NCBI GenBank assembly: GCA_003152325.1
Contig: PLZX01000060.1
Location: 14,534 to 78,533 of the forward strand
Length of the DNA: 64,000 nt
Reading direction: 5' to 3'
Source: Bryobacterales bacterium
Lineage (GTDB): Bacteria; Acidobacteriota; Terriglobia; Bryobacterales; Bryobacteraceae
Within the stretch, counting starts at the first letter, position 1, and the number at the start of each line of letters is the position of its first letter. Under the pieces are notes generated by a model. The model made no database searches, was not told the origin of the DNA, and was given only the letters and a program-made list of their open reading frames with translations. This document shows, piece after piece, positions 8,760 through 58,734 of the stretch. Both the position numbers and the translations under genes were made by a program.

Positions 8760-8761
8760 CG

Positions 8762-18129: not shown

Positions 18130-18975
18130 CTACGCCTTTGCATATTTGGCAATCAACCGCTTGACTAGCGTGTGATGCGCCTTTACGACCTCGAGCGAAT
18201 CGGCATACTCGCCCAACTCGCCGCCTTCGAATTCCGTGGACATCCAGCCTCTGAAGCCGCCTGCCACCAGGGCTTTCACGATGCCATCGTAAGGTATTGC
18301 CGGAACATCGCCCTTGACCATCTGGTGGAACTTGCCGTGGACGTGGTTAATGTAGGGCGCCAGTTCCTTCAAAGTCGCGGGATTGGACGGCGGCGGCACC
18401 TCACCTTCCGGACCGACCGTGCCAGGCGCGACTTTTTCGAAAATGCTGCAGTCCGGGATCAGCCCCAGGTGCGGTGAAGAGATCTTCTTGACCTGCTGAA
18501 TCAACTCCTGCCCGAGGGGCGTTTCGAACATGATCGGTGTGTGCACCTCATACCCGATCTTGAGTTTGAGTTTCTCGGCGTACGGCAGCAGCCGCTCGAT
18601 CACCTTATAAATGAAGTATTGCGCGCGCACCACCGGGAAGCCCAGGCGCGCAGCGCCTTTCAGTTGCGGAATCGTATACTCGACCAGATCATCGTCGGTC
18701 AGGTCGCGATCGTGCCAGAAGAAGGGATCGGCGTACGCACCGTAAGAAGTGGGAACCAGGCTGTAGCGCTGGCAGGCGTTCTTGAACGTGGTCTCGAATT
18801 CCTTGGGGACGTTCGGAAAATCGCGGTGGTGCTGCGGACCGACGATCTCGACGCCCATGCCAGGGCCGAGTTCCGAGGCCTTTTTCATGCACTCGTCAAA
18901 CGACCATTTGTACGAGTAGAATTCAGTGGTGAAGCTGTATAGCGTGACGCCCACGCGGAAGGTGTTGGTTGCCAT
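18130..18975 (-). CDS. a9: xylose isomerase-like TIM-barrel protein (sugar phosphate isomerase/epimerase family), no signal; candidate glycoside lyase large subunit
   Basis: 281 aa. MATNTFRVGVTLYSF with no signal peptide. Motifs YEVHTP, LIPDCSIF, HVHGKFHQM, STEFEG. Lies 9 nt after the b9 stop, with a GAGG RBS. Confidence 0.8.
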   Translation of the reverse strand: MATNTFRVGVTLYSFTTEFYSYKWSFDECMKKASELGPGMGVEIVGPQHHRDFPNVPKEFETTFKNACQRYSLVPTSYGAYADPFFWHDRDLTDDDLVEYTIPQLKGAARLGFPVVRAQYFIYKVIERLLPYAEKLKLKIGYEVHTPIMFETPLGQELIQQVKKISSPHLGLIPDCSIFEKVAPGTVGPEGEVPPPSNPATLKELAPYINHVHGKFHQMVKGDVPAIPYDGIVKALVAGGFRGWMSTEFEGGELGEYADSLEVVKAHHTLVKRLIAKYAKA

Positions 18976-18984
18976 ATTGCGTCC

Positions 18985-19566
18985 TCAATCCACCTCTAGG
19001 CTTAGCCGCTTGGTGACCGCCTCATGAGGCCTTGCCCGCCCGCGCCCGCCGGTGCCGAACGGACCCTTCACGTTGATGTTGGCGGTAACTTCGTGTTCGC
19101 CCGGCGAAAGCGGGGTGACCCTGGGAACGAACAACTCCGCCCGGTCCAGAACAAACCACCAGGGGACGTCCTGCCAGCGGGTCCACTTGGTGAGCAGGTC
19201 GGGGACACGGTGGCTGTAACGATTGAGCGTCAGGATCATGTCCTTCGGGTCGAATTCTTCTCCGTCGACCGTCACCTCGAAACCTTCGACGCAGCAGAGA
19301 GGCTCGGCGCGATAGGGAACCATTCGCACTACCAACTGAAATCCCCTCTGTCCCTCGAGGGTGGTGTTCTTGAAGCCGTCTTCGCACAGCCAGAGAGGGC
19401 TTCGGAGCAGGTTCGGGTGCTGTTGCGGGCTGGGTTTGGGCGGCTGCTGCGCGACTGCTTGCGAAGTCGCGAGACCCGCGGTCAACGCCGCGCCGGTTGC
19501 CACCATCAGGCTACGCCGCGTGACGACGCCGGCTGAAAGGGAGCCAGGTGCTCTCTCGTTCTGCAT
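18985..19566 (-). CDS. b9: small partner protein carrying a Tat signal
   Basis: Start moved to ATG 19566, preceded by GGAGA. MQNERAPGSLSAGVVTRRSLMVATGAALTAGLATSQAVAQQ. C-terminal domain DGFKNTTLEGQRGFQLVV...VEGFEVTVDGEEFDP...SPGEHEV is alignable with b1-b8. Confidence 0.65.
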   Translation of the reverse strand: MQNERAPGSLSAGVVTRRSLMVATGAALTAGLATSQAVAQQPPKPSPQQHPNLLRSPLWLCEDGFKNTTLEGQRGFQLVVRMVPYRAEPLCCVEGFEVTVDGEEFDPKDMILTLNRYSHRVPDLLTKWTRWQDVPWWFVLDRAELFVPRVTPLSPGEHEVTANINVKGPFGTGGRGRARPHEAVTKRLSLEVD

Positions 19567-19607
19567 ATCATCTCCTTTCCTGAACGCGATCGGATTCCGT
19601 CGCGGGT

Positions 19608-20651
19608 TCACAACTTAAACAAGCGCTCCGCGTTGAGGTGATAGATTCTCTCGCGGTCTTCGTCGCTCATCGGAGTTCTCTCAAAGAACTGCACCGCCAG
19701 GTCTCCGTTCACGGCGGCAAAGTCCGTGGCGAAGAGGATGTGATCCGAGCCTATGGCGTTGATGGCGCAAGTCAGGGCCTCCGGATGGTAGTGTCCGCTG
19801 GTGCTGATGAAGATGTTCTCCTTGATATAGGCGGAGGGCGGCTTCTTGACTTTCCATGCCCTGGCGCCTTCATCCAGGCGACCTAGCCAGTAGGGAAGCA
19901 GCTCGCCGAGGTGGCCCAGGATCAGTTTCGCTTTAGGGAATTCGTCGAAAACGCCGCTGCCGATGATGCGAAGAACCTGCGTCCCGGTATAGATGGCGCC
20001 GGCCCACATCAGGTTCTGAACCTCGGCGTGGCCTTCCAGCAACTTGACGGATTCGGAATTGGGAATGTTGGGATGCAGGTAGAGGGGCACTTCGAGCGAA
20101 GCGGCGCACTCCCACAGCGGCCGGAAGGCCTGCGAGTCCAGGAATTCCCAATGCACGTGATCCTGGCCTTCGATCATGGCGCCGCGGAGCTTGAGTTTCG
20201 TGACGGCGCGCTCCAGTTCGGCAACGGCAGCCTTGGGATCCTGCGTGGGCAGAGCGGCCATGCCCGCAAAACGAGTGGGGTGCTTCACCACCGCTTCCGC
20301 CAGAATTTCATTGTTTACTTTGGCCAGATCCGTGGCTTTCGCCGCATCCGTGAGGAACTGGTAAGAGCTGTTCGAGATCACCTGCATGGTGACGCCCGCC
20401 GCATCCATTTCGCCCAGGCGGATGGCATCCAGATCAGCCTGGCGGTTTGCAGTCCCAGATGGGGTCCGCCCGGCGGCTTCGATGACGTTCAACGCCGTCC
20501 AGTGTTCTTCAACGCCGATCTTCTTGAACTGCTTGGGGGGCGGCGGCACCGCCTGCTGCGCGTGTAAGTTTCCCTGCAGCATCAACGGGGCGCCTGCCGC
20601 AAGAGCGGCCGTCCTGCCGAGAAATCCTCTTCTTCCGATTGCGCCGTTCAT
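19608..20651 (-). CDS. amidohydrolase_2 family protein (LigW/ACMSD-like) with Tat signal
   Basis: Start moved to ATG 20651 (MNGAIGRRGFLGRTAALAAGAPLMLQGNLHAQQ). IGVEEHW N-terminal metal motif, LYLHP, ATDF near the C-terminus. Confidence 0.8.
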   Translation of the reverse strand: MNGAIGRRGFLGRTAALAAGAPLMLQGNLHAQQAVPPPPKQFKKIGVEEHWTALNVIEAAGRTPSGTANRQADLDAIRLGEMDAAGVTMQVISNSSYQFLTDAAKATDLAKVNNEILAEAVVKHPTRFAGMAALPTQDPKAAVAELERAVTKLKLRGAMIEGQDHVHWEFLDSQAFRPLWECAASLEVPLYLHPNIPNSESVKLLEGHAEVQNLMWAGAIYTGTQVLRIIGSGVFDEFPKAKLILGHLGELLPYWLGRLDEGARAWKVKKPPSAYIKENIFISTSGHYHPEALTCAINAIGSDHILFATDFAAVNGDLAVQFFERTPMSDEDRERIYHLNAERLFKL

Positions 20652-20781
20652 TTTGAACTCCTGTAGTGACCAGACAATCACCGTGCCGCCATGCCAGGGA
20701 TCTCCAGGCATGGCGGTTTCCTAATTCAACGGCCTGAGCTCAGCAACTTGAGCGCAGCGGCCGGGCCGGAGCAGGCGGTGC

Positions 20782-21855
20782 TTACGCCACCTCACCGAAC
20801 AGCTTGCGCAACATAGCGTGGTGCCGGCGGAGCTGGTCGGAAGCGCGGAACAGATCGCGCGGACCCTCATACTCACTGGAGAAGTAGTGCTCGTAGCCGC
20901 CCTCAATGAAAGTCGGAATCACTTGCTCGTAGGGAATGCTGTACTCGTGCAAGTCCTCGGTCATCTCCCAGAACTTGCCGTGGACGTGGTAGACGTACGG
21001 CATCAACGGGAGCAGGTCCTTGGGATTGTTGTTGCTGAAGTGATAGACCCCGGCGAATGAGGCATACCGCAGTTCGGCTTCGTTGCCACCCATCTTCTTG
21101 ACTTCGGCTGTCGTCTTGTCCGGCCCCAGGTTGTTGATATAGGCGTTTCGGATGTATTGAATGATCTTCTCGCGCCCGCCCTGCCGCATCACGACGTCAT
21201 CGCGATACCTAGGCGGAGTCTTCGTGAAGATGCTCATGTCGGGCGTGAAGCCGAAGTGTTTTGTCTTGGTCCGGGTGATGATGTCCATCAGCTTGTGGAC
21301 GTCGTCCGAATTGAGGATGGCCGGCGAATGAAGTTCGATCGCGATCTTGACGTCGTATTCTTCCGCGTAAGGCAGGGCCTTTTCGATCAACTCCGGCACG
21401 GGGATGTCGGAGCTGCCGAAGGTGGGACGATTCACCTTGAATCCAAGGCGCTTGGCCAGTTTGAAATCGCGGACCATCATGTCCAGCGATTCCTTAACGG
21501 TCAACTGCCGGTCTTTGTGGAGCAGAGAATCCACGAAACTATCGAGACAGCTCGGCTTGGTTTTGTACTTATCCATCAGGCCGTGCCATTCCTCCACCCA
21601 GCGGTCGGTCGGGTTCGGATAGCCGTCAACGTGCGACTCTCCCAGAATTTCGATGCCTTCCGCGCCCATGTCGGCCACGTCGGCAATGCACTGCTCCAGG
21701 CTCATGGTTCCAGCCTGGAAGTCGCCGGTATAGCTGTACAACGTGACGCCGCGCTTGATCTTCGAAAGCGAAGCCGCCTTCGCCGGAGTATCAGAAAGGT
21801 ACGCAGCCGCTGCCGCCGCACCCGCCACCGTTTTCAGGAAATTTTTTCTTGTCAT
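20782..21855 (-). CDS. a1: Tat-signal xylose isomerase-like TIM-barrel protein, candidate glycoside lyase large subunit
   Basis: 357 aa. MTRKNFLKTVAGAAAAAAYLSDTPAKA. Motifs GVTLYSY, IELHSP, FTPDMSIF, HVHGKFWEM, SSEYEG. Confidence 0.8.
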   Translation of the reverse strand: MTRKNFLKTVAGAAAAAAYLSDTPAKAASLSKIKRGVTLYSYTGDFQAGTMSLEQCIADVADMGAEGIEILGESHVDGYPNPTDRWVEEWHGLMDKYKTKPSCLDSFVDSLLHKDRQLTVKESLDMMVRDFKLAKRLGFKVNRPTFGSSDIPVPELIEKALPYAEEYDVKIAIELHSPAILNSDDVHKLMDIITRTKTKHFGFTPDMSIFTKTPPRYRDDVVMRQGGREKIIQYIRNAYINNLGPDKTTAEVKKMGGNEAELRYASFAGVYHFSNNNPKDLLPLMPYVYHVHGKFWEMTEDLHEYSIPYEQVIPTFIEGGYEHYFSSEYEGPRDLFRASDQLRRHHAMLRKLFGEVA

Positions 21856-21893
21856 TTTGATTTCTCCTTACCTGAGTCCTTTGCTTCGGGCAA

Positions 21894-22289
21894 TCAAACC
21901 ACGAGTGGCATTTTCTTTTGGAAAAGGTAAGTGGAAGGCTTGATGGGCATGTAGGGGACGCGGATCTTCTCGACCACCTGCACATCGTGCATCCCCACTT
22001 TAAGGCCACCCACCTTGCTAACGGTGAGCGTCGCAACGTCGCGGAACGGCCAGCGTTGATCGGTAAGGTTGGTCAACTCGTCCAGAGTGAACGTCTGGTT
22101 GCCGAGGGAAAAACGGATCTGTTCGCGCTTGAACGTCTCTCCGTCGATGGTGACGTCAAAGCCCTCAACCAGCGAGAGGTAAACTCCTCGATAGTAGGCG
22201 GTGCGGAGTTGCAGTTGAAAGCCAGTCACCTGCCCTGCGCTGCTCACATTTTTGAATCCGCCTGGAAGCACCATGTCCTGCTCGGGCAT
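21894..22289 (-). CDS. b1: small partner protein (no signal)
   Basis: Start moved to ATG 22289, preceded by GGAGA. MPEQDMVLPGGFKNVSSAGQVTGFQLQLRTAYYRGVYLSLVEGFDVTIDGETF...ATLTVSKVGGLKVGMHDV...MPLVV. Confidence 0.7.
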   Translation of the reverse strand: MPEQDMVLPGGFKNVSSAGQVTGFQLQLRTAYYRGVYLSLVEGFDVTIDGETFKREQIRFSLGNQTFTLDELTNLTDQRWPFRDVATLTVSKVGGLKVGMHDVQVVEKIRVPYMPIKPSTYLFQKKMPLVV

Positions 22290-24212: not shown

Positions 24213-24608
24213 ATGTTCGACAAGTACATGCTGATCACCAGAGGTTTTCAGAACGTTACCCAGAATGGCCAGATCACCGGCTTTCAGATGAAGGTCCGCA
24301 TTACCTATTACAGAGGCGTGTTTTTGCCGCTCCTGACGGGTTTCGCCGTGACGGTGGATGGGGAGGAGTTCAAGCCGGAGCAGATGAGGTTTACCGTCAA
24401 CGACCACACCTACACCTTCGAGGAACTGGGGAAGGCGGAGAAGGTTCATTGGAATTTTGGCGACCCTGCGACCCTGACTGTTTTGAAACCGGGCGGCCTC
24501 AAACCTGGCATCCACCAGGTGGAAATTGTTGAAACCGTCAAGCCTTCGTACATGCCGGCCACGGGCTTCACCGGGCATACGAAGCGGAAGATCACTTTAG
24601 TGGCCTGA
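24213..24608 (+). CDS. b2: small partner protein (no signal)
   Basis: 131 aa. MFDKYMLITRGFQNVTQNGQITGFQMKVRITYYRGVFLPLLTGFAVTVDGEEFKP...WNFGDPATLTVLKPGGLKPGIHQV...KITLVA. AGGAGA RBS. Confidence 0.75.
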   Translation: MFDKYMLITRGFQNVTQNGQITGFQMKVRITYYRGVFLPLLTGFAVTVDGEEFKPEQMRFTVNDHTYTFEELGKAEKVHWNFGDPATLTVLKPGGLKPGIHQVEIVETVKPSYMPATGFTGHTKRKITLVA

Positions 24609-24648
24609 GGCGAGACAGATCCAGGGAACATTCACCAGGAGACTTCAT

Positions 24649-25728
24649 ATGACGCGAAAAGAATTCTTGAAAACAGTGACGGTGGCGGCAGCAGGAACGT
24701 TGATCCAGGCTGAGAACGCCGGCGCGCAGACGCCAAAGGCGAAGTTCAAGCGCGGCGTGACGCTGTACAGCTACCAGGAAGAGTACTACACGCATGCGAT
24801 GTCGCTCGAAGACTGCATCGCCGAAGTTGCGTCCATGGGAGCCGAAGGCGTCGAGGTGATTGCCGAAGAGATGGTACCCAACTATCCGGATCCGCCGGAA
24901 GCATGGGTGCAACACTGGCACGCGTTGATGGCAAAGTATCACACCAAACCGGCCTGTCTCGACACGTTTGTAGACGTTTACTGGGGCGGACGGCGGGATA
25001 TGACGGTCCAGGAATCGGTGGACACGCTGGCAGCGCAGTTGAAGCTGGCAAACCGGATGGGCTTCAAAGTAATGCGGCCGACTACCGGTCCGGTTCGCGA
25101 TTCCGCGCCGGAGATGATCGAGAAGGCCCTGCCGATCGCCGAGAAGTATGACGTTCGGATCACCCCGGAGATCCACGCACCTATTCCGACCAAGGGAAAG
25201 TTCATCGACTCCTACATGGAGATCATCGCCAAAACGAAGACCAAGTACCTGGGATTCAATCCGGACATGGGCATCTTCGCCAAGCGAATTCCGCGCATCG
25301 TACTTGCCCGGCACCTGCGGGACGGCGCGTCGGAGAAGGTCATTCAATACCTGGACCAGGCGTTCCAGGATGGCGTCAGCGCGGAAACCCGGGCAGCCGA
25401 AGCGGCCAAGATGAGCAACCGGGAAGAAGATGTGCGGGCAGCCTTGATGACGGGCGGTTACGGCCCCATTTCCAACAACCCCAGGGACCTGCTGGCCATC
25501 ATGCCGTACGTTTATAACGTTCACGGCAAGTTCTACGAAATGACGGACGATCTCAAGGAATACAGCATTCCTTACGACGAAGTGATGCCAATATTCATCG
25601 AAGGCGGCTACACCGGGTACATCAATAGCGAATACGAAGGGCAGCGCAACACCCAGGACGTGAAGGAGACGGATAGCTGCGAAGAGATCCGCCGCCACCA
25701 CGTGATGATGGCCCGGTTGATGGCGTAA
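24649..25728 (+). CDS. a2: Tat-signal xylose isomerase-like TIM-barrel protein
   Basis: 359 aa. MTRKEFLKTVTVAAAGTLIQAENAGAQ. Motifs GVTLYSY, PEIHAP, FNPDMGIF, NVHGKFYEM, NSEYEG. Confidence 0.8.
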   Translation: MTRKEFLKTVTVAAAGTLIQAENAGAQTPKAKFKRGVTLYSYQEEYYTHAMSLEDCIAEVASMGAEGVEVIAEEMVPNYPDPPEAWVQHWHALMAKYHTKPACLDTFVDVYWGGRRDMTVQESVDTLAAQLKLANRMGFKVMRPTTGPVRDSAPEMIEKALPIAEKYDVRITPEIHAPIPTKGKFIDSYMEIIAKTKTKYLGFNPDMGIFAKRIPRIVLARHLRDGASEKVIQYLDQAFQDGVSAETRAAEAAKMSNREEDVRAALMTGGYGPISNNPRDLLAIMPYVYNVHGKFYEMTDDLKEYSIPYDEVMPIFIEGGYTGYINSEYEGQRNTQDVKETDSCEEIRRHHVMMARLMA

Positions 25729-25785: not shown

Positions 25786-26184
25786 ATGTTCGATGAAAGC
25801 GTAATCCACGGGGATCTAATCTATCGGGACGACGACCAGCTCTCCAGCGTCCGTTTCAAGATTCGGTTGCCCTGGTATCGATCGTTAACCGCATCGTGCA
25901 TCGAGGGAATTGACATCACCATTGGCGGAGCGGAGGTAAGCCGGAAGGATGTCGCCTTAACCCTGTACGGACTCACTCACAGCCTGGATGAAGTGGCTGG
26001 TCTGAGCGACGTCTTGTGGTTCGTCAGGGACGCGGTCGACGTTCATGTTCGCACCCCGACGCCCCTCAAACCTGGACCGCAAGATGTCAAGGTGGTCATG
26101 CGGGTGAGGATTCCCTACGGCCCAGATTTCAACGAGATCGCGATTTGTCAAAAGCGCCTCACTCTCGTGGGATCGGATTACTAA
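25786..26184 (+). CDS. b3: divergent small partner protein (no signal)
   Basis: 132 aa. MFDESVIHGDLIYRDDDQLSSVRFKIRLPWYRSLTASCIEGIDITIGGAEV...LKPGPQDVKV...RLTLVG. Same length and motif positions as the other b proteins but much more divergent. Confidence 0.6.
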   Translation: MFDESVIHGDLIYRDDDQLSSVRFKIRLPWYRSLTASCIEGIDITIGGAEVSRKDVALTLYGLTHSLDEVAGLSDVLWFVRDAVDVHVRTPTPLKPGPQDVKVVMRVRIPYGPDFNEIAICQKRLTLVGSDY

Positions 26185-26271
26185 GACCGACGATCCTAAT
26201 TCTTGAATTGGCCTGAGCGATGGCGCTAGGAGAGGACTTCTAGCGCCAGAAATTGAGGAAGGGAGACATCA

Positions 26272-27382: not shown

Positions 27383-27772
27383 ATGCAATACAACATTCTC
27401 AACAGAGGATTCAAAAATGTTTCGCAGAACGGGCAGGTAAACGGATTCAAAATCGACGTCCTGTCCGGTTATTATCGCGGCGTCTACGTGACGTTGATTG
27501 AAGGATTCGATGTGACCGTGGATGGCAAAACCTTCCCGCGGGACCAGGTGCGCTGCACCTTCGGCAGCAAGACATACACGCAGGACCAGTTGGAAAAACT
27601 ATCCGACGTGCGCTGGCAATGCGACGAGCCGGTCACGCTGCTGGTTAGCAAGGCGGGGGGGCTGGAACCTGGGATGCATGACATCAAGGTGGTGGCGAAG
27701 ATCCGGGTTTCGTACATGCCGGTGCAGCCCAGTGTGTACAACTTTGAAGCCAGGATCCCATTGGTAGGATGA
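27383..27772 (+). CDS. b4: small partner protein (no signal)
   Basis: 129 aa. MQYNILNRGFKNVSQNGQVNGFKIDVLSGYYRGVYVTLIEGFDVTVDGKTFP...VTLLVSKAGGLEPGMHDI...IPLVG. Confidence 0.75.
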   Translation: MQYNILNRGFKNVSQNGQVNGFKIDVLSGYYRGVYVTLIEGFDVTVDGKTFPRDQVRCTFGSKTYTQDQLEKLSDVRWQCDEPVTLLVSKAGGLEPGMHDIKVVAKIRVSYMPVQPSVYNFEARIPLVG

Positions 27773-27809
27773 GGCGCGGCTAAGGTCAATCAAGAGTCGA
27801 GAGGAAAAT

Positions 27810-29529: not shown

Positions 29530-29560
29530 GGCGCAGCAGAGCGAAGAGGAGAAGACTGTT

Positions 29561-34829: not shown

Positions 34830-34899
34830 ATAGAGGTTCTTAACGTGGTTACAGGAGGACGGCTCCAATGGCCGCAAGAATTCTCGTGATCGGTCCGCA

Positions 34900-35784: not shown

Positions 35785-35801
35785 ATTTTCCTCCCATTGC
35801 C

Positions 35802-49336: not shown

Positions 49337-49339
49337 GTG

Positions 49340-51738: not shown

Positions 51739-52131
51739 ATGTTCGACAAGTACATGGTGATGACCCGAGGATTCCAGAACACTTCTCAGAACGGGAAAAT
51801 CATCGGATTCGAAATGAAGGTTCGTATCACCTATTATCGCGGCGTTTTCCTGCCACTCCTGACGGGATTCGACGTCGCAGTAGATGGGGAAAAGTTCAAG
51901 CCGGAAAACATGCGTTTCACGTATGGCGGCCACACCTATACGTTCGATGAAATCGGCAAGGCCGAGAAAGTGCATTGGGATTTTGGCGAGCCGGCCACAC
52001 TCACCATCCTGAAGCCGGGCGGGTTGAAGCCGGGCATCCACGATCTGGAGGTGGTTCAGACCGTCAAGCCATCGTATATGCCAAATGGTTTTACAGGCAG
52101 TACCAAGAGAAAGATCACGTTGGTGGCATGA
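51739..52131 (+). CDS. b6: small partner protein (no signal); close paralog of b2
   Basis: 130 aa. MFDKYMVMTRGFQNTSQNGKIIGFEMKVRITYYRGVFLPLLTGFDVAVDGEKFKP...WDFGEPATLTILKPGGLKPGIHDL...KITLVA. Confidence 0.75.
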   Translation: MFDKYMVMTRGFQNTSQNGKIIGFEMKVRITYYRGVFLPLLTGFDVAVDGEKFKPENMRFTYGGHTYTFDEIGKAEKVHWDFGEPATLTILKPGGLKPGIHDLEVVQTVKPSYMPNGFTGSTKRKITLVA

Positions 52132-52153
52132 CCGGGCACAGGAGGATTTGAAG

Positions 52154-53230
52154 ATGACTCGCAAACATTTTATACAAACACTCTCAGCCGCCGCCGCGGC
52201 GACCATGCTTCAGGGCGAAGGCCAGGCGCAAACGGCACGCACCACGGTGAAACGGGGCGTAACGCTATACAGCTACCAGGAAGAATATTACACGCATGCG
52301 ATGAACCTGGAGGATTGCATTGCGGAGGTGGCGTCGATGGGCGCCGAGGGAATCGAGATCATCGGGGAAGAGATGGTTCCGAATTACCCGAACCCTCCGG
52401 AAGCCTGGGTACAACACTTCAAGGCCCTACTGGCAAAGTATCACACCAAGCCCGCTTGCCTCGACACGTTTGTCGACATCACCTGGGGCGGACGGCGGAA
52501 CATGACCAAGCAGGAAGCCGTGGATACGCTGGTTGTCCAAATGAAGCTTGCCAAGCGGCTTGGATTCGATACGTTCCGGCCGGCGTTTGGCGGGCGGACC
52601 ACGAATCCGATGGAGCTGGTCAAGGCGGCGATTCCGCATTTGGAAGAAAACGACGTCCGGCTCGCGCTGGAAATCCACGCGCCTGCGCAACTCGATTCCG
52701 AACAGATCACGGGGTATCTGGATCTGATTTCGACCACGAAAACCAAGCATTTCGGCTTCACGCCGGACATGGGAATTTTCTGTAAGCGGGTTCCGCGCGT
52801 GATGTTCCAGAACTTCGTACGCCACGGCGCCACTGAGAAGGTGGTGGAGTATATCGACTCCGCATTCCAGAACGGAACGCCGAACGATCAGATTGTGGCT
52901 GAGATCGCGAAAATGGGCGCCAATGACAAGGACCGCGAGTGCGCCGCCCACGCCAGCGGCTACGGCCCCGCGAGCAACAATCCCAAGCAGCTCGCCAAGG
53001 TGCTGCCGTACAGCTACAACATCCACGGAAAGTTCTATGAAATGACGGAAGATCTGCACGAATACAGCATTCCGTACGACGACATCGTGCCCGTCCTGAA
53101 GGCCAGCACTTACGATCGCTACATCAACAGCGAATACGAAGGCCAACGCTGGACACAAGACGCCAAGGAAACCGACAGTTGCGAGGAGATCCGCCGCCAG
53201 CACGCCATGCTGCGGGAGCTTTTGGCTTAG
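52154..53230 (+). CDS. a6: Tat-signal xylose isomerase-like TIM-barrel protein; close paralog of a2
   Basis: Start moved to ATG 52154, after GGAGGA (MTRKHFIQTLSAAAAATMLQGEGQAQ). Motifs GVTLYSY, LEIHAP, FTPDMGIF, NIHGKFYEM, NSEYEG. Confidence 0.8.
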   Translation: MTRKHFIQTLSAAAAATMLQGEGQAQTARTTVKRGVTLYSYQEEYYTHAMNLEDCIAEVASMGAEGIEIIGEEMVPNYPNPPEAWVQHFKALLAKYHTKPACLDTFVDITWGGRRNMTKQEAVDTLVVQMKLAKRLGFDTFRPAFGGRTTNPMELVKAAIPHLEENDVRLALEIHAPAQLDSEQITGYLDLISTTKTKHFGFTPDMGIFCKRVPRVMFQNFVRHGATEKVVEYIDSAFQNGTPNDQIVAEIAKMGANDKDRECAAHASGYGPASNNPKQLAKVLPYSYNIHGKFYEMTEDLHEYSIPYDDIVPVLKASTYDRYINSEYEGQRWTQDAKETDSCEEIRRQHAMLRELLA

Positions 53231-53469: not shown

Positions 53470-53871
53470 ATGCTTGAAAAAGAAATGATCCAGGAAAAGG
53501 GATTCAAAAACATTTCCCGAAACGGACAGATCACCGGCTTTCAGGTAGCGGTTCGCACGCTCTACTATCGCGGTATCTGGGCCTCTCTGCTGGAGGGCGC
53601 CGAAGTCACCGTTGACGGGGAAAAGTTTCCCAAGGAACAAGTTACCTGGACCATCGGAACCCGTACTTTCACGGTTGCAGATTTCCCGAATGCGGCCAAT
53701 GTGCGCTGGCCCTTTGAGGAGACTGCCACGCTCACCATTAACAAGCCCGGCGGATTGAAACCGGGCTTCCACGATTTTGAGATCGCGGTGATCTTCCGGG
53801 CCTCCTACATGCCTATCGAGATGCAGCCCTGGATCAACCGGGCGAGTAGAAAACTGGTACTGGTGCAGTGA
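53470..53871 (+). CDS. b7: small partner protein (no signal)
   Basis: 133 aa. MLEKEMIQEKGFKNISRNGQITGFQVAVRTLYYRGIWASLLEGAEVTVDGEKFP...ATLTINKPGGLKPGFHDF...KLVLVQ. AAGGAG RBS. Confidence 0.75.
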   Translation: MLEKEMIQEKGFKNISRNGQITGFQVAVRTLYYRGIWASLLEGAEVTVDGEKFPKEQVTWTIGTRTFTVADFPNAANVRWPFEETATLTINKPGGLKPGFHDFEIAVIFRASYMPIEMQPWINRASRKLVLVQ

Positions 53872-53896
53872 GGCACAGGGCCAAAGGAGATATGAA

Positions 53897-54844
53897 ATGA
53901 CTCGGAAAAGCTTCCTTGAAGTGATGGCCGGCACCGCAGCCGTGGCTGCCATGCCTTTATCCGCCGCACCCGCACAGAAGTCTAAGATCAAGCTCGGTGT
54001 GACTTTGTATAGTTACACGGGCGACTACCAGGTCACGATGTCCCTGGAAGATTGCATCGCCGACGCGGCCGATCTTGGCGCTGAGGGGATTGAGATCCTG
54101 TCGGAGACGCACATCCCCGGTTATCCGAATCCGGACAGCAAGTGGATAGACCAGTGGCACAACTTGATGGCGAAGTACCAGACCAAGCCCACTTGTTATG
54201 ACTGCTGGATCGACTCCCGGCTGCATAAAGACCGCACGCTGACAGTGCAGGAGTCGCTCGACTTTCTTCTGATGGACATGAAGTTGGCCAACCGGCTGGG
54301 GTTCAAAATCATGAGGCCCAAGCTGGGCGTTGTGACGCCGGACCTGATGCCGGATCCGGCGTGGCGTGAGACGATTGAACGGGCACTTCCGATGGCGGAG
54401 AAGCTGAACGTCAAAATCGCGCCGGAGATCCACTCGCCAACCGCCCTGCAATCGAAGATCACCGACACTTACATGGAGTTGATCACCAAGACCAAAACGA
54501 AGTACTTTGGCTTCGTGATCGATTTCAGTGTCTTTCAGGTGCGGCCGCGCCGCGACGTACCACCACGGCCCAGGGCAGCCGGGGAGATCCCTTCAGAACT
54601 CGCGGAAGATCCGAAGCACCTGATCCCGCTGTTGCCTTATACGTTCCACTACCACGCCAAGTTTTTTGAGATGACCGATGAATTTCGCGAGTACAGCATA
54701 CCGTACGAGAAAGTGCTGCCGGTATTGGTGGAAAGCGGATTCGACGGTTACCTGTCGAGCGAATATGAGGGAATCCGAGAACTAGGCCGCGGCGCGGATC
54801 AACTGCGCCGCCAGCACTTAATGCTGCGGCAACTTCTGGCCTAG
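53897..54844 (+). CDS. a7: Tat-signal xylose isomerase-like TIM-barrel protein
   Basis: 315 aa. MTRKSFLEVMAGTAAVAAMPLSAAPA. Motifs GVTLYSY, PEIHSP, FVIDFSVF, HYHAKFFEM, SSEYEG. Confidence 0.8.
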   Translation: MTRKSFLEVMAGTAAVAAMPLSAAPAQKSKIKLGVTLYSYTGDYQVTMSLEDCIADAADLGAEGIEILSETHIPGYPNPDSKWIDQWHNLMAKYQTKPTCYDCWIDSRLHKDRTLTVQESLDFLLMDMKLANRLGFKIMRPKLGVVTPDLMPDPAWRETIERALPMAEKLNVKIAPEIHSPTALQSKITDTYMELITKTKTKYFGFVIDFSVFQVRPRRDVPPRPRAAGEIPSELAEDPKHLIPLLPYTFHYHAKFFEMTDEFREYSIPYEKVLPVLVESGFDGYLSSEYEGIRELGRGADQLRRQHLMLRQLLA

Positions 54845-57081: not shown

Positions 57082-57142
57082 GTTGAATCTCCTTATGACC
57101 GCCGGGGCGGTACTGATTCTTGAGCGAACGACGACGCTGGCC

Positions 57143-58240
57143 TTACACTTCTCCGAGCAATCTTCTGAGCATCACGTGGTGCCGGCGGATCTGTTCCAAC
57201 TCGTCGTAAGGATCCGTTGAAATATCCTGTTTGTCGCGCTGTCCTTCGTACTCGCTGGCAAGCGATGCGTTAAAGCCGGCCTCTATGAGAACTGGCATGA
57301 CCTCGTTGTAGGGAATGCTGGACTCGTGGCAGTCTTCTGTCATATTCCAGAACTTGGCGTGGCAGTGCCGGATGTATGGCTTCAGCGGAATAAGGGATTT
57401 GGGATCCTGCATCACGATGTTGTAGACCTGATCCACGTAGCGGGTGTCGCCGGGCTTGGGGTTCATTTTGGCGACTTCGTTCCGTGCCTGCTCCCTGGAT
57501 TGGCCGGCTTCGCGTGCATCTTCGATGTAACTGGCAATGTCCCTGGTCAATACGCCTTCGCGAATATTGCGCTCACGGGTTGCCGGGTTGGGCCGTTTCT
57601 GGAAGATGCTGAAGTCCGGGATGATGCCGACGTTTTGCGTCTTATTTCTTTCGATCATCTCCACCCAGAGGGTTATCAGCTTGGAGGCGATCTGGTTGGG
57701 CGCGTGGATTTCAAAGCCCATCCAGACCCCATACTTCTCTGCCAGCGGAATGGCTTTTTCAACCACGTCGATGGGAGTTCCGATTAGCAGGCGCATGTTT
57801 TTGAAGCCTAATCGGTTTGCCAGTTTCAGGTCCCTCTCCATCATGGCGACGCCCTTGTCGATGGGCTGGTCCTGGCCTTTGATCATCACCGTCTCCTGAA
57901 ACTGGGTGTATGTGTCGGCTTCCAGACCATACTTCTGCATCCAGTTCTTGAACTGGGTGACCCAGGCCTCAGGCGGATTCGGAAAATCGACAACCATCTC
58001 TTCCGCCAGCATTTCGATGGAAGAGGCACCTATGGAGCCGGCTTCCCGAAGGCAATCTTCCAAGCTCATCACCCGGGTGTAATATACCTCCTGGTAGCTA
58101 TAGAGCGTGATGCCGCGCCGCAGATTGGACTTTGGTGCGGCGTCCGCGACGGAGGATGCGGCGAGGGCCGCGGTTGCACCGGCGACCGTCTGCAAGAATG
58201 TTTTGCGTGTCATATCCATATGTCTCAGCTCCTTGTTCAT
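57143..58240 (-). CDS. a8: Tat-signal xylose isomerase-like TIM-barrel protein
   Basis: 365 aa. MNKELRHMDMTRKTFLQTVAGATAALAASSVADA. Motifs GITLYSY, FEIHAP, IIPDFSIF, HCHAKFWNM, ASEYEG. The ATG overlaps the b8 stop (ATGA). Confidence 0.8.
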   Translation of the reverse strand: MNKELRHMDMTRKTFLQTVAGATAALAASSVADAAPKSNLRRGITLYSYQEVYYTRVMSLEDCLREAGSIGASSIEMLAEEMVVDFPNPPEAWVTQFKNWMQKYGLEADTYTQFQETVMIKGQDQPIDKGVAMMERDLKLANRLGFKNMRLLIGTPIDVVEKAIPLAEKYGVWMGFEIHAPNQIASKLITLWVEMIERNKTQNVGIIPDFSIFQKRPNPATRERNIREGVLTRDIASYIEDAREAGQSREQARNEVAKMNPKPGDTRYVDQVYNIVMQDPKSLIPLKPYIRHCHAKFWNMTEDCHESSIPYNEVMPVLIEAGFNASLASEYEGQRDKQDISTDPYDELEQIRRHHVMLRRLLGEV

Positions 58241-58734
58241 TGCACCAAAGTCATCTTCTTGGTAGTAAGAGGCAGGATTGCCGGGGGCTCGCCGTAGTGA
58301 GTCACACCGTCCGGACCAACCGGACGCTCCGGCGTGGCATATAGACCTTCCTTGTCGATGCGCGGTCTGTAGGAGTTCCTGATGAAGAGGCCGAGTTGCA
58401 CGGTGTGGCTCCCTGGCTTCAGACCGCCCGGCTTGCTGATGGTGAGTGTAGCGGGATCACCAAAGAACCATCTGACATTGGTCGTTTTCGCCAACTCCGC
58501 GAAGGTGAAAGTGAGACGATTACTGGGAATGTTTGGTCCGTGCTGCGCGACCGAGAAAGTCATTTTGTCGAGCGGAATCTCTTCGCCATCGACAATCAGC
58601 TTCAGCGTGTCCACCTGGGACAGATAAACACCGCGGTAGTAGTCGATACGGATGTTCACTTGAAAGCCGTCAACCTGTCCGGCATGGCTGACGTTTTTGA
58701 AGTCCTGCACCATGATCATGTATTTTTCAAACAT
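58237..58734 (-). CDS. b8: small partner protein (no signal) with internal insert and C-terminal extension
   Basis: 165 aa. MFEKYMIMVQDFKNVSHAGQVDGFQVNIRIDYYRGVYLSQVDTLKLIVDGEEIP...WFFGDPATLTISKPGGLKPGSHTV...KMTLVQ. Confidence 0.75.
   Translation of the reverse strand: MFEKYMIMVQDFKNVSHAGQVDGFQVNIRIDYYRGVYLSQVDTLKLIVDGEEIPLDKMTFSVAQHGPNIPSNRLTFTFAELAKTTNVRWFFGDPATLTISKPGGLKPGSHTVQLGLFIRNSYRPRIDKEGLYATPERPVGPDGVTHYGEPPAILPLTTKKMTLVQ

What the first reader, a model, noticed from the sequence alone, without database searches (positions are those of the whole stretch)
18130..58734. Ten paralogous small-protein + TIM-barrel cassettes: candidate expanded battery of C-glycoside / 3-keto-glycoside lyase heteromers
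Seen in sequence: ten gene pairs, always with the small gene first and the large gene next on the same strand.
- b1/a1: 22289..20782 (-)
- b2/a2: 24213..25728
- b3/a3: 25786..27330
- b4/a4: 27383..28943
- b5/a5: 29065..30562
- b6/a6: 51739..53230
- b7/a7: 53470..54844
- b8/a8: 58734..57143 (-)
- b9/a9: 19566..18130 (-)
- b10/a10: 36443..34900 (-)

Within-pair gaps are 9-87 nt. The b8/a8 pair overlaps as ATGA.

Most of the small proteins share GF(K/Q)NV..G(Q)..GF, YYRG, (E)GF.VTVDG(E).F, PATLT..KPGGLKPG.H and an L-V C-terminal tail; b3, b9 and b10 match only in part. The large proteins share GVTLYS(Y/F), E-x-H-x-P, PD(M/C).(I/V)F, H.H(G/A)KF and SEYEG. That is a Glu/His/Asp/His/Glu pattern as in xylose-isomerase-like TIM-barrel metal sites.

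Established knowledge: C-glycoside deglycosidases (DgpB/DgpC of gut strain PUE, CarB/CarC of Microbacterium and Arthrobacter) are heteromers of such a TIM-barrel subunit and a roughly 15 kDa partner. They cleave 3-keto-C-glycosides produced by a Gfo/Idh/MocA (DgpA) or flavin oxidase. Related TIM barrels perform beta-elimination in 3-keto-O-glycoside and levoglucosan pathways.

Inference: the window encodes a ten-fold expanded set of such lyases together with four Gfo/Idh/MocA oxidoreductases. I believe the small proteins belong to the family catalogued as the C-glycoside deglycosidase beta subunit (DUF6379-type), but I cannot confirm that without a search. To my knowledge the scale of the expansion, the predicted periplasmic location and the TonB-receptor context are uncharacterised.
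Basis: partly seen in the sequence, partly recalled or inferred. Interest (0 to 1): 0.9.

Follow-up and report, generated by a model that had tools for sequence, protein, structure and literature searches.

The report
Periplasmic C-glycoside lyase gene battery
A soil/peat Acidobacterium carries ten (at least thirteen on the full contig) two-gene sets for the known enzyme that cuts sugars off plant C-glycosides. All appear to be exported to the periplasm as pre-assembled pairs, so this is a known enzyme family at a scale and in a location I found no report of.

Summary
Ten small-gene/large-gene pairs lie at the stated coordinates.

- **Family:** all ten small proteins match Pfam PF19906 (C-glycoside deglycosidase beta subunit). 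All ten large proteins are xylose-isomerase-like TIM barrels whose best solved relatives are C-glycoside deglycosidase (CGD) alpha subunits.
- **Active site:** the Mn ligands, the supporting Glu and the beta-subunit Tyr needed for C-C cleavage are invariant. The catalytic His is present in 9 of 10; a10 has Thr, as do its orthologues.
- **Scale:** the contig (class Terriglobia by best hit) carries three more pairs just outside the window, giving at least 13. Each paralogue has its own 78-97% orthologues elsewhere, and alpha and beta co-diverged (r = 0.85).
- **Export:** there is one signal per pair. Eight alphas carry T-R-K-x-F-L, which is R-R in near-orthologues. In pairs 9 and 10 the beta subunit carries a canonical R-R signal. 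Partners have no signal, which implies Tat "hitchhiker" export.
- **Context:** three Tat-signal Gfo/Idh/MocA enzymes resembling the Bacteroides periplasmic glycoside 3-dehydrogenase sit alongside.

Substrates and export are untested. This is a new variant of a known kind.

The parts
21894..22289 (-). b1, CGD beta subunit (131 aa), no signal
   Evidence: PF19906 E 1.1e-38. SD + ATG.
20782..21855 (-). a1, CGD alpha subunit (357 aa), N-terminal MTRKNFLK signal
   Evidence: PF01261 E 1.3e-15. All catalytic residues present. Signal features.
24213..24608 (+). b2, CGD beta (131 aa), no signal; a stop codon lies 3 codons upstream of the ATG
   Evidence: PF19906 E 3.7e-39. PDB DfgB E 9e-23 and DgpB E 4e-14. 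Upstream stop.
24649..25728 (+). a2, CGD alpha (359 aa), MTRKEFLK signal
   Evidence: PDB 8qvc_A E 1.1e-79 and DgpC E 3e-45. P0104, 86% identical, has MRRREFLQ at the same place.
25786..26184 (+). b3, divergent CGD beta (132 aa), no signal
   Evidence: PF19906 E 8.7e-19.
26272..27330 (+). a3, divergent CGD alpha (352 aa), MDMTRKQFLG signal; groups with a9/a10
   Evidence: PF01261 29.8 bits. 45% identical to a9. Catalytic residues intact.
27383..27772 (+). b4, CGD beta (129 aa)
   Evidence: PF19906 E 7e-35.
27810..28943 (+). a4, CGD alpha (377 aa), MDITRKEFFG signal
   Evidence: PF01261 E 2.9e-17..
29065..29529 (+). b5, CGD beta (154 aa) with a long C-terminal loop
   Evidence: PF19906 E 1.5e-34. 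Loop length.
29561..30562 (+). a5, short-lid CGD alpha (333 aa), MTRKDFLN signal
   Evidence: PF01261 E 6.7e-9. Lid of 45 aa against 84-91 aa in the long forms.
51739..52131 (+). b6, CGD beta (130 aa), 81% identical to b2
   Evidence: PF19906 E 1.6e-37..
52154..53230 (+). a6, CGD alpha (358 aa), MTRKHFIQ signal
   Evidence: PF01261 E 7e-14. 60% identical to a2.
53470..53871 (+). b7, CGD beta (133 aa)
   Evidence: PF19906 E 4.7e-38.
53897..54844 (+). a7, short-lid CGD alpha (315 aa), MTRKSFLE signal
   Evidence: PF01261 E 1.4e-17..
58237..58734 (-). b8, CGD beta (165 aa) with insertions
   Evidence: PF19906 E 5.2e-33.
57143..58219 (-). a8, CGD alpha (358 aa; 365 aa if it starts at 58240), MDMTRKTFLQ signal
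   Evidence: PF01261 E 7.2e-13..
18985..19566 (-). b9, CGD beta (193 aa) that itself carries a twin-arginine signal (VTRRSLMV)
   Evidence: PF19906 E 1.5e-16. TIGR01409 14.3 bits, under the 16.7 cutoff. The RR signal is conserved in homologues down to 41% identity.
18130..18975 (-). a9, short-lid CGD alpha (281 aa) without any signal
   Evidence: PDB DgpC 7bvr_A E 3e-41. N-terminus MATNTFRV.
35802..36443 (-). b10, CGD beta (213 aa) with an RR signal (SRRALIL) and a conserved ~45-aa extension
   Evidence: PF19906 E 2.4e-15. AF2 core matches DgpB, TMt 0.82. The extension is conserved in about 20 homologues.
34900..35784 (-). a10, CGD-alpha-like (294 aa), no signal, catalytic His replaced by Thr (EITS)
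   Evidence: PDB CGD alphas E 8.5e-23. His->Thr is conserved in orthologues.
16648..18120 (-). GFO_c, Tat-signal (SRRHFF) Gfo/Idh/MocA, glycoside 3-dehydrogenase-like, immediately downstream of a9
   Evidence: NF058561 BT_2158_fam E 3.6e-124, 415 bits against a cutoff of 750. PDB 8tdf_A E 1e-93.
10217..11830 (-). GFO_b, Tat-signal (NRRKFL) Gfo/Idh/MocA with C2 domain
   Evidence: NF058561 E 5e-84..
8762..10111 (-). GFO_a, Tat-signal (DRREFLK) Gfo/Idh/MocA
43108..44262 (+). GFO_d, cytoplasmic Gfo/Idh/MocA, candidate keto-sugar reductase
   Evidence: LevoglcsnDh model E 5e-50, under its cutoff. No signal.
42139..43098 (+). Solo cytoplasmic AP_endonuc_2 TIM barrel, candidate 2-hydroxy-3-keto-glucal hydratase
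   Evidence: PDB 8ro4_A '2-hydroxy-3-keto-glucal hydratase' E 6.7e-13. Not hit by the CGD alpha HMM.
19608..20711 (-). Tat-signal (GRRGFL) Amidohydro_2 protein inside the b1-a1-...-b9-a9-GFO_c gene string
   Evidence: PF04909 E 3.7e-38. N-terminus.
36596..39982 (-). 1128-aa outer-membrane beta-barrel (CarboxypepD_reg + OMP_b-brl_4) upstream of b10
   Evidence: PF25183 E 4.5e-193.
33027..34877 (-). Tat-signal (SRRGFL) CocE/NonD-family hydrolase downstream of a10
   Evidence: TIGR00976 E 2.5e-69..
31637..33004 (-). MFS sugar-transporter-family protein in the same gene string as pair 10
   Evidence: Precomputed Pfam Sugar_tr/MFS_1.

Best explanation
The window comes from an Acidobacteriota (class Terriglobia by best hit) genomic island. 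It encodes a battery of heterodimeric, Mn-dependent C-glycoside-deglycosidase-type lyases: ten pairs here and at least thirteen on the contig.

**Shown**
- Each pair is a CGD beta subunit gene followed by a CGD alpha TIM-barrel gene.
- The published metal ligands, the supporting Glu and the beta-subunit Tyr that enables C-C cleavage are intact in all pairs. The catalytic His is intact in all but pair 10.
- Alpha and beta duplicated and diverged together.
- Each paralogue is separately conserved in other metagenomes.
- The regions that line the aglycone pocket differ between paralogues: lid length, the beta C-terminal loop and the PuCGD Tyr303 position.

**Inferred**
- Each heterodimer assembles and binds metal in the cytoplasm. 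It is then exported folded by the Tat pathway on a single signal peptide. That signal is a T-R-K-x-F-L variant on alpha for pairs 1-8, and a canonical R-R signal on beta for pairs 9 and 10. The unsigned partner hitchhikes.
- In the periplasm, Tat-exported Gfo/Idh/MocA glycoside 3-dehydrogenases (BT_2158-like) oxidise the sugar C3-OH of imported plant glycosides.
- The lyases then remove the aglycone by beta-elimination. This is C-C cleavage for C-glycosides, and probably also C-O cleavage for O-glycosides.
- Different paralogues handle different aglycones.
- The keto-glycal product is taken up and converted to glucose by a cytoplasmic hydratase-like TIM barrel and reductase (42139-44262).

Pair 10, with no catalytic His and a conserved beta extension, probably performs a modified or different step.
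For: **Family**
- PF19906 in 10/10 betas and PF01261 in 10/10 alphas.
- The best PDB relatives are solved CGDs only.
- Even the most divergent beta, b10, models onto DgpB with TMt 0.82, and its 17 top structural hits are all CGD betas.

**Active site**
- E147/D179/H269/K271/E305/E307 (AgCGD2 numbering, PMC8563793) were mapped through the HMMER alignment. They are invariant in 13/13 paralogues, and His149 is present in 12/13.
- PuCGE Tyr39-beta is essential for C- but not O-glycoside cleavage (PMC10628242). It is invariant in 13/13.

**Heteromer**
- Alpha and beta identity matrices correlate, r=0.85, Mantel p=1e-4.
- Natural beta-alpha fusions exist: the solved 8qrz matches both b2 and a2, and there are five database fusions.

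**Divergent, maintained paralogues**
- Identity is 20-60% between paralogues but 78-97% to each one's own orthologue.
- The lid is 84-91 aa in nine paralogues and 37-55 aa in four, and pocket positions vary.

**Export**
- A 33-41 aa N-terminal extension is absent from the solved CGD alphas aligned here: their chains begin aligning at a2 residues 28-34.
- The extension has T-R-K-x-F-L, an Ala-rich h-region (KD 1.2-1.8, the same as the RR signals of b9/b10) and small-x-small sites.
- Near-orthologues carry R-R at the same position: P0104 (86% identical to a2), L010, L011, L012 and L018.
- Betas 2, 3, 4, 7 and 10 have stop codons 1-6 codons upstream of the ATG, so no hidden signal is possible.
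- In pairs 9 and 10 the signal is on beta, and alpha begins 7-8 residues before the conserved core.
- The neighbouring operon members are all RR proteins.

**Oxidase and product handling**
- GFO_c matches BT_2158_fam at E 4e-124 and PDB 8tdf at E 1e-93.
- Beta-alpha-GFO strings recur: b9-a9-GFO_c, b12-a12-GFO_e and L093.
- The solo TIM barrel hits the 2-hydroxy-3-keto-glucal hydratase 8ro4 at E 7e-13.
Against: - No activity, substrate, complex or localisation was tested.
- The R-K motif is not a canonical twin-arginine. The TIGR01409 Tat model gave no hit on the four RK alphas scanned (a1, a2, a3, a7) and only sub-threshold hits on b9 and GFO_b.
- Some homologues even have R-Q or R-T at that position.
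- A heterodimer model could not be computed.
- PuCGE also cleaves 3-keto-O-glucosides, so C-glycoside specificity cannot be inferred from family membership.
- GFO_c scores below the NCBIfam equivalog cutoff, 415 against 750 bits.
- a10 lacks the catalytic base.
- No Tat machinery genes lie in the window.
- The taxon assignment rests on best-hit identity (82%) to one MAG.
Confidence: 0.7

Rival explanations
1. The pairs are general 3-keto-glycoside beta-eliminases of an oxidative 'alternative glycan breakdown' pathway, like the Bacteroides BT2156-2160 / AL1-5 system. They would act mainly on O-glycosides or oligosaccharides rather than on C-glycosides. The battery would then reflect sugar or linkage diversity, not aglycone diversity.
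For: - The adjacent dehydrogenases are closest to the BT_2158 family and to PDB 8tdf/8tdh from that pathway.
- PuCGE cleaves 3-keto-O-glucosides as well.
- O-glycosides are far more abundant than C-glycosides in plant litter (own knowledge).
- One class-10 homologue (L091) sits next to Pel9A-like beta-helix and SASA (PF03629) domain proteins.
Against: - The known O-specific eliminases (AtOGE, and the Bacteroides AL/BT1 lyases) are described without a partner subunit, and AL/BT1 do not cleave 3-keto-C-glycosides.
- Here every TIM barrel keeps a beta subunit with the Tyr39 that is specifically needed for C-C cleavage.
- A phloretin/DAPG-hydrolase-like gene lies between pairs 11 and 12.
Confidence: 0.2
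2. The N-terminal T-R-K-x-F-L extensions are not Tat signals. Either they are Sec signals, so that alpha alone is exported and beta acts elsewhere, or they are not export signals at all and the enzymes are cytoplasmic like all characterised CGDs.
For: - The motif has R-K, not R-R.
- TIGR01409 does not detect it.
- Rare homologues have R-Q or R-T.
- The CGD papers read here do not mention export signals, and the solved CGD alpha chains lack this extension.
Against: - Conservation of the whole T-R-K-x-F-L block in 74 of the 120 closest homologues, with R-R in near-orthologues, is not expected of a Sec n-region.
- Sec export of alpha alone would separate it from a beta that is essential in PuCGE.
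- Paralogues 9 and 10 put a canonical RR signal on beta and none on alpha. This only makes sense if the dimer travels together.
- Lys can in principle keep the salt bridge that the second Arg makes to TatC E103 (structure in PMC13323110; inference).
Confidence: 0.08
3. The multiplicity is an artefact (assembly chimera or collapsed strain variants), or most copies are decaying pseudogenes.
For: - The source is a metagenome assembly.
- An IS element (two DDE_Tnp ORFs, 15333-16563) sits in the island.
Against: - The same order appears in two ENA records from different samples, 66 kb and 116 kb.
- Paralogues are only 20-60% identical, so they cannot be strain variants.
- All 20 ORFs are intact, with SD sites and conserved catalytic residues.
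- Each paralogue has close orthologues elsewhere.
Confidence: 0.02

Closest known systems
C-glycoside deglycosidases / beta-eliminases: CarBC (Microbacterium, Arthrobacter AgCGD2), DgpBC (strain PUE), DfgAB (E. cellulosolvens), Deinococcus aerius CGD (8qvc), Microbacterium testaceum fused CGD (8qrz)
   Same: - The two-gene beta/alpha architecture is the same.
- The beta subunit family (PF19906) is the same, and so is the TIM-barrel alpha with identical Mn ligands, catalytic His, Glu307 and beta Tyr39.
- a2 is alignable to 8qvc_A over its full mature length at E 1e-79.
   Different: - The solved CGD alpha chains lack the N-terminal extension, so they show no export signal. Here each pair has one Tat-type signal.
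- Known genomes have 1-6 pairs, against at least 13 here in about 83 kb.
- The partner oxidase here is BT_2158-like with a Tat signal, not cytoplasmic DgpA or the FAD oxidase CarA.
- One pair lacks the catalytic His.
- The host phylum, Acidobacteriota, is not among those listed by Mori et al..
Catenibacillus decagia / C. scindens multi-copy dgpBC (PMC11170127)
   Same: - One genome holds several divergent dgpBC clusters and many DgpA homologues.
- The authors interpret this as breadth of C-glycoside substrate range.
   Different: - Those genomes have six and four clusters, scattered in a Gram-positive gut anaerobe and therefore cytoplasmic.
- Here there are at least 13 pairs concentrated in one island of a diderm soil bacterium, with export signals.
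Bacteroides / metagenomic AL1-5 = BT2156-2160 alternative glycoside-processing pathway (bioRxiv 10.1101/2024.03.25.586180)
   Same: - It is a periplasmic oxidise-then-eliminate logic.
- A Tat-signal Gfo/Idh/MocA 3-dehydrogenase with tightly bound cofactor is involved. GFO_c is its homologue (E 1e-93 to 8tdf).
   Different: - Its lyase (AL/BT1) is listed as a single protein with no partner subunit, and it does not cleave 3-keto-C-glycosides.
- Here the lyases are CGD-type heterodimers.
Agrobacterium tumefaciens GlycDH / AtOGE / AtHYD system (PMC10628242; PDB 8ro4)
   Same: - It performs beta-elimination of 3-keto-glucosides at a Mn TIM-barrel site, followed by hydration of 2-hydroxy-3-keto-glucal.
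- The window's solo TIM barrel hits the hydratase 8ro4.
   Different: - AtOGE is a homodimer unrelated in sequence to CGD alpha. It has no beta subunit and is O-specific.
Tat hitchhiker complexes: NiFe hydrogenase (signal on small subunit), formate dehydrogenase (signal on catalytic subunit), Burkholderia FAD-glucose dehydrogenase gamma-alpha
   Same: - There is one signal peptide per hetero-oligomer, and the unsigned partner is co-exported.
- Both arrangements are known: signal on the small subunit or on the catalytic subunit.
   Different: - Here both arrangements occur among paralogues of one enzyme family in one genome.
- Most signals use R-K.
- Nothing has been tested experimentally.

Membership tests
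C-glycoside deglycosidase (CGD/CGE, alpha-beta) | Small subunit belongs to PF19906 (CGDB / DUF6379) | tested here: met
   10/10 are above the gathering score: 56.8-133.5 bits against a cutoff of 27.6. The b10 model matches DgpB at TMt 0.82.
C-glycoside deglycosidase (CGD/CGE, alpha-beta) | Large subunit is a xylose-isomerase-like TIM barrel homologous to solved CGD alpha chains | tested here: met
   PF01261 hits 10/10, with a3 1.3 bits under the cutoff. For a2, a9 and a10 the only PDB sequence hits at E<=0.001 are CGD alphas, E 1e-79 to 8.5e-23.
C-glycoside deglycosidase (CGD/CGE, alpha-beta) | Alpha and beta genes are adjacent | tested here: met
   Gaps are 9-87 nt, same strand, beta first, in 10/10, and also in 3 further pairs outside the window.
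C-glycoside deglycosidase (CGD/CGE, alpha-beta) | Mn ligands Glu147, Asp179, His269, Lys271, Glu305 (AgCGD2 numbering) | tested here: met
   Invariant in 13/13.
C-glycoside deglycosidase (CGD/CGE, alpha-beta) | Catalytic base His149, with supporting Glu307 | tested here: met
   Met in pairs 1-9. Glu307 is present in 13/13. His149 is present in 12/13.
C-glycoside deglycosidase (CGD/CGE, alpha-beta) | Catalytic base His149, in pair 10 specifically | tested here: not met
   a10 has Thr (EITS). Two independent alignments agree. Orthologues have EITQ. Pair 10 is therefore filed as CGD-like, not as a CGD.
C-glycoside deglycosidase (CGD/CGE, alpha-beta) | Beta-subunit Tyr39 (PuCGE), required for C- but not O-glycoside cleavage | tested here: met
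   It is the second Y of YYRG. It is invariant in 13/13 and was mapped through the DgpB alignment.
C-glycoside deglycosidase (CGD/CGE, alpha-beta) | Alpha and beta form a specific heteromer with the active site at the interface | not testable with these tools
Indirect support comes from co-divergence (r=0.85, p=1e-4) and natural fusions.
C-glycoside deglycosidase (CGD/CGE, alpha-beta) | Cleaves the C-C bond of 3-oxo-C-glycosides | not testable with these tools
   A biochemical assay is needed.
Tat hitchhiker export | A twin-arginine signal peptide on exactly one subunit | tested here: inconclusive
   b9 and b10 have S/T-R-R-x-L motifs. For b9, TIGR01409 gives 14.3 bits, under the 16.7 cutoff; b10 has no hit. 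Alphas 1-8 have T-R-K-x-F-L. TIGR01409 gave no hit on the four scanned (a1, a2, a3, a7), but R-R occupies the same position in near-orthologues.
Tat hitchhiker export | The partner subunit has no signal of its own | tested here: met
   Betas 1-8 start 7-10 residues before the conserved core, and five betas have upstream in-frame stops. a9 and a10 start 7-8 residues before the core.
Tat hitchhiker export | Export depends on TatABC and on complex formation | not testable with these tools
   Genetic and biochemical tests are needed.
BT_2158-family glycoside 3-dehydrogenase (NF058561) | Score at or above the NCBIfam equivalog cutoff of 750 bits | tested here: not met
   GFO_c scores 415 bits and GFO_b 283 bits. 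They are homologues (PDB 8tdf E 1e-93), not equivalogs.
BT_2158-family glycoside 3-dehydrogenase (NF058561) | Tat signal, implying a periplasmic location | tested here: met
   RR motifs are present in GFO_a, GFO_b, GFO_c and, outside the window, GFO_e. For GFO_b, TIGR01409 gives 14.1 bits, under the cutoff.

The most novel reading that the evidence does not exclude
Terriglobia run a dedicated periplasmic 'oxidative deglycosylation' system.
- An outer-membrane barrel imports plant polyphenol glycosides.
- Tat-exported NAD-bound 3-dehydrogenases oxidise them, possibly wired to a neighbouring membrane-anchored hexahaem cytochrome.
- A panel of at least 13 substrate-specialised CGD heterodimers strips the sugar outside the cytoplasm, so that potentially toxic aglycones are never imported. 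Each heterodimer is carried across the membrane on a single signal that evolution has placed on either subunit.
- Within this system the His-less class-10 pair, whose beta subunit has a conserved QH(R/H)L-containing extension, performs a new chemistry. This could be keto-glycal hydration or isomerisation, or catalysis with a base supplied in trans by beta.
Probability: 0.3. Interest if true: 0.75.

Novelty: new variant of a known kind. Interest (0 to 1): 0.6.

Why it matters
C-glycosides are among the most hydrolysis-resistant plant metabolites. Their cleavage has been worked out only for cytoplasmic enzymes of gut Firmicutes, Actinobacteria and a Deinococcus.

If this reading is right, several things follow:
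- Abundant but poorly cultured peat and soil Acidobacteria would hold the largest known repertoire of these lyases. They would use it in the periplasm, linked to the recently described periplasmic glycoside 3-dehydrogenases.
- Polyphenol-glycoside turnover in peat (the 'enzyme latch' debate) would become directly testable with a defined gene set.
- The island would supply a ready-made panel of 13 naturally diversified lyases for mapping aglycone specificity and for biocatalysis.
- It would offer a natural experiment on Tat hitchhiking: R-K signals, and a signal that sits on either subunit.

Tried and rejected
- **Genome scan with betas.** The alpha alignment was used instead.
- **Heterodimer modelling.** I tried to model b9+a9 as one chain, using the fact that they are in frame.
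- **Promoter and terminator scan, 16-31 kb.** Counts equalled the shuffle expectation, so the scan was uninformative. Operons were inferred from gene spacing only.
- **NCBIfam.** It has no model that names these proteins. The seven CGD subunits scanned (five alphas, two betas) got no hit or only chance-level hits.
- **TIGR01409.** It did not detect the R-K signals.
- **Phloroglucinol pathway idea.**
  - The SDR-cyclase-3HCDH string at 12576-15124 shares three families with the PGR-DPGC-TfD cluster of C. scatologenes.
  - The SDR and cyclase are no closer to anything specific in PDB or NCBIfam, and the TAL gene is absent. I left this as an inconclusive side note.
- **Recent tandem duplication.** Rejected, because paralogues are 20-60% identical and each has its own 78-97% orthologues.
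- **Assembly artefact.** Rejected.
- **a10 as a decaying copy.** Rejected, because His->Thr is conserved in orthologues from other samples.

Full report
**1. Observation**

Every gene has a Shine-Dalgarno-like sequence before its ATG. Within-pair gaps are 9-87 nt.

Three start codons need adjusting:
- a6 most likely starts at 52154.
- a10 most likely starts at 35784.
- a8 starts at 58219 or 58240, and only the latter gives the ATGA overlap.

HMMs built from the pairs find exactly ten alpha and ten beta ORFs in the window. The same gene order occurs in two ENA records from different samples, of 66 kb and 116 kb. The array is therefore neither chance nor an assembly artefact.

**2. Family assignment**

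- All ten small proteins exceed the Pfam gathering score for PF19906, 'C-glycoside deglycosidase beta subunit' (E 1e-39 to 2e-15). b3, b9 and b10 are the weakest.
- All ten large proteins match PF01261, the xylose-isomerase-like TIM barrel.
- Against PDB sequences, a2 aligns over its whole mature length to the Deinococcus aerius C-glucosyl deglycosidase alpha chain 8qvc_A (E 1e-79). It also matches DgpC, DfgA and AgCarB2 (names).
- b2 matches DfgB, DgpB and AgCarC2.
- The divergent a9, a10 and b9 also hit only CGD chains.
- An AlphaFold2 model of b10 (pLDDT 84) superposes on DgpB with TM 0.82. Its 17 best structural matches are all CGD beta subunits.

**3. Active-site test**

Mori et al. (PMC8563793) define the Mn ligands Glu147, Asp179, His269, Lys271 and Glu305, the catalytic base His149 and the supporting Glu307 in AgCGD2. 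The HMMER alignment to 7dnm_A reproduces that numbering exactly, so I could map these residues onto the paralogue alignment.

- All ligands and Glu307 are invariant in the ten window alphas and in three more from the flanks.
- His149 is present in all but a10, which has Thr.
- Bitter et al. (PMC10628242) showed that Tyr39 of the PuCGE beta subunit is essential for C-glycoside but not O-glycoside cleavage. It is the second Tyr of the YYRG motif and is invariant in all thirteen betas.

Elements that shape the aglycone pocket differ between paralogues:
- The lid between Asp179 and His269 is 84-91 residues in nine alphas and 37-55 in a5, a7, a9 and a10.
- The position of PuCGD Tyr303 is P/Q/H/A/L/I/G/D.
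- The beta C-terminal loop ranges from 29 to 56 residues.

**4. Scale and history**

Fetching the flanks of the longer contig shows two more pairs upstream. A DAPG/phloretin-hydrolase-like gene lies between them and a Tat-signal Gfo/Idh/MocA gene follows them. One more pair lies downstream. That gives at least 13 pairs in about 83 kb, and about 28 kb of the contig remains unseen.

- Paralogues are 20-60% identical as alphas and 14-81% as betas.
- The two identity matrices correlate (r=0.85, Mantel p=1e-4), so pairs duplicated and diverged as units.
- Most paralogues have their own orthologues at 78-97% identity in other metagenome contigs. The copies are therefore old and individually maintained.
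- The closest genome hit is a Terriglobia MAG from the SPRUCE peat site (82% to a2). Other signal-bearing relatives are Bryobacterales, Terracidiphilus, Ca. Acidoferrum and Steroidobacteraceae.
- In 80 related loci most genomes show one or two pairs per 21 kb, and a few show 3-6.
- The highest multiplicity I found in the literature is six dgpBC clusters, in Catenibacillus decagia.

**5. Export**

The alphas of pairs 1-8, and of the three flank pairs, carry a 33-41 residue N-terminal extension. The solved CGD alphas lack it: their chains begin aligning at a2 residues 28-34.

The extension has these features:
- It reads M-T-R-K-x-F-(L/F/I), followed by an Ala/Gly/Thr-rich stretch and small-x-small sites.
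- Its hydrophobicity matches that of the canonical R-R signals of b9 and b10.
- There is no lipobox Cys.

Among the 120 closest alpha homologues in a 5.8-billion-protein collection, the N-termini divide as follows:

| N-terminal feature | Number of homologues |
|---|---|
| T-R-K-x-F-L block | 74 |
| R-R | 6 |
| No signal | 13 |
| Beta-alpha fusion | 5 |

The six R-R cases include one clear R-R counterpart of a2, and a few of the remaining homologues have R-Q or R-T. P0104 is 86% identical to a2 and reads MRRREFLQT where a2 reads MTRKEFLKT. Bryobacterales, Steroidobacteraceae and Acidoferrum relatives also have R-R. The R-K motif therefore occupies the position of a genuine twin-arginine.

The beta partners have no signal. 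Five of them have an in-frame stop within six codons upstream of the ATG.

In pairs 9 and 10 the arrangement is reversed:
- The beta subunit has a canonical twin-arginine signal. It is conserved in homologues down to 41% identity and in about 20 b10-like proteins.
- The alpha subunit starts 7-8 residues before its conserved core.

The simplest reading is folded, metal-loaded heterodimers exported by Tat with one signal per dimer. This is the hitchhiker mechanism known from hydrogenases, formate dehydrogenases and the Burkholderia FAD-glucose dehydrogenase. It is inferred, not shown. The TIGR01409 model does not detect the R-K signals and only marginally detects the R-R ones.

**6. Context and pathway**

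By spacing, the genes b1, a1, Amidohydro_2, b9, a9 and GFO_c run consecutively on the minus strand (22289 to 16648) and look like a single operon. Every member either has a signal (R-K or R-R) or is a predicted hitchhiker.

- GFO_c and GFO_b resemble the BT_2158 glycoside 3-dehydrogenase family (E 4e-124 and 5e-84, both below the equivalog cutoff). They also resemble the solved dehydrogenases 8tdf/8tdh (E 1e-93).
- That family is the periplasmic, Tat-exported oxidase of the Bacteroides alternative glycoside pathway. Its own lyase cannot cleave 3-keto-C-glycosides.
- Beta-alpha-GFO strings recur: b12-a12-GFO_e on the flank, and GFO plus class-10 plus class-9 pairs in another metagenome.
- Pair 10 lies in a string with a 1128-aa outer-membrane barrel, a Tat-signal CocE/NonD hydrolase, an MFS transporter and an Amidohydro_2 protein.
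- A cytoplasmic solo TIM barrel related to the 2-hydroxy-3-keto-glucal hydratase 8ro4 (E 7e-13) sits next to a cytoplasmic Gfo/Idh/MocA. This fits downstream handling of the elimination product.

**7. Pair 10**

- a10 and its orthologues have E-I-T-(S/Q)-G where the other alphas have E-x-H-x-P.
- Their betas share a strongly conserved extension, RSPxEWLPK…RGGD…AGAPxGxQH(R/H)LTS.
- AlphaFold2 models this extension with low confidence when beta is folded alone. That is consistent with folding only against alpha.
- The subfamily is small: 13 representatives at E<=1e-10 among 1.84 billion.

I file pair 10 as CGD-like, not as a CGD. Its chemistry is open.

**8. Comparison and novelty**

The enzyme family, its mechanism and its two-subunit architecture are known, and multi-copy sets have been discussed. 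I found no paper describing any of the following (the library is incomplete):
- export signals on CGDs, or a periplasmic location for them;
- CGDs in Acidobacteria;
- CGD pairing with BT_2158-type dehydrogenases;
- a His-less subclass.

Public annotations of the homologues are generic: 'sugar phosphate isomerase/epimerase', 'TIM barrel protein', 'DUF6379'.

**9. Verdict**

This is a new variant of a known kind.

| Claim | Confidence |
|---|---|
| Family membership | about 0.95 |
| Periplasmic hitchhiker export | about 0.75 |
| Paralogue-specific aglycone specialisation | about 0.6 |
| C-glycosides as the main substrates | about 0.45 |

Noticed in passing
window 34900-36443 (-); L091 6001-7532; L093 6001-7524: The class-10 pair has an alpha whose catalytic His is replaced by Thr (EITS/EITQ), conserved in orthologues. 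Its beta has an RR signal and a conserved ~45-aa extension (RSPxEWLPK..RGGD..GAPxGxQH(R/H)LTS), which is low-confidence when modelled alone. In L093 it sits in one string with a Tat-GFO and a class-9 pair.
   Followed up: partly
window 6229-11830 (-): Two Tat-signal Gfo/Idh/MocA genes are followed by a 640-aa protein with a signal peptide, six CxxCH haem motifs and a C-terminal membrane anchor (Pfam multihaem hits). Next comes a 203-aa membrane protein with a weak cytochrome b561 match (E 0.001). This could be an electron outlet for periplasmic sugar dehydrogenases.
   Followed up: partly
window 12207-15124 (+): A Cupin, SDR, 'cyclase'-family and 3-hydroxyacyl-CoA-dehydrogenase-family string. 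The last three are the same families as the PGR-DPGC-TfD phloroglucinol cluster of Clostridium scatologenes. No TAL gene is present, and sequence searches were not specific.
   Followed up: partly
window 15333-16563 (+): Two overlapping DDE_Tnp_1_4 transposase ORFs (226 and 191 aa), apparently a split IS element. It lies between the SDR-cyclase-3HCDH string and GFO_c.
   Followed up: no
L089 2593-8117 (just upstream of window position 1): Two more CGD pairs flank a PF18089 DAPG/phloretin-hydrolase-like gene (NF047887 E 3.5e-31, below cutoff). A Tat-signal GFO_C2 gene follows them.
   Followed up: partly
window 42139-44262 (+): A cytoplasmic solo AP_endonuc_2 protein related to the 2-hydroxy-3-keto-glucal hydratase 8ro4 (E 7e-13). 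It is next to a cytoplasmic Gfo/Idh/MocA and follows a Transp_cyt_pur permease.
   Followed up: partly
window 44296-51536: A block of FAA_hydrolase, HMGL-like (isopropylmalate/citramalate-synthase-like), MFS, SDR, two enoyl-CoA hydratases and a family III CoA-transferase lies between pair 10 and pair 6. It is possibly an acid/CoA catabolic module. Its role is unknown.
   Followed up: no
window 22619-23893 (-): A 424-aa protein with no Pfam or NCBIfam hit lies between the divergent CGD operons. By eye, its N-terminus looks like a winged-helix DNA-binding domain followed by one membrane span and a periplasmic domain, which would suit a candidate sensor-regulator.
   Followed up: no
window 55444-57081 (-): A 545-aa secreted protein with an LVIVD repeat and beta-propeller-like hits lies downstream of a8 and upstream of a DoxX gene. 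Its function is unknown.
   Followed up: no
L009 (DATLSU010000018.1, 38 kb contig): A MAG labelled 'Patescibacteria group' carries 5-6 tandem CGD pairs without signal peptides, 62-71% identical to window alphas. Either the contig is mis-binned or this is a cytoplasmic version of the same array.
   Followed up: no
databases (P0102-P0221): T-R-K-x-F-L, rather than S/T-R-R-x-F-L-K, is the majority signal motif of this alpha clade (74 of 120). Other Tat-type proteins in the same window all use R-R.
   Followed up: partly
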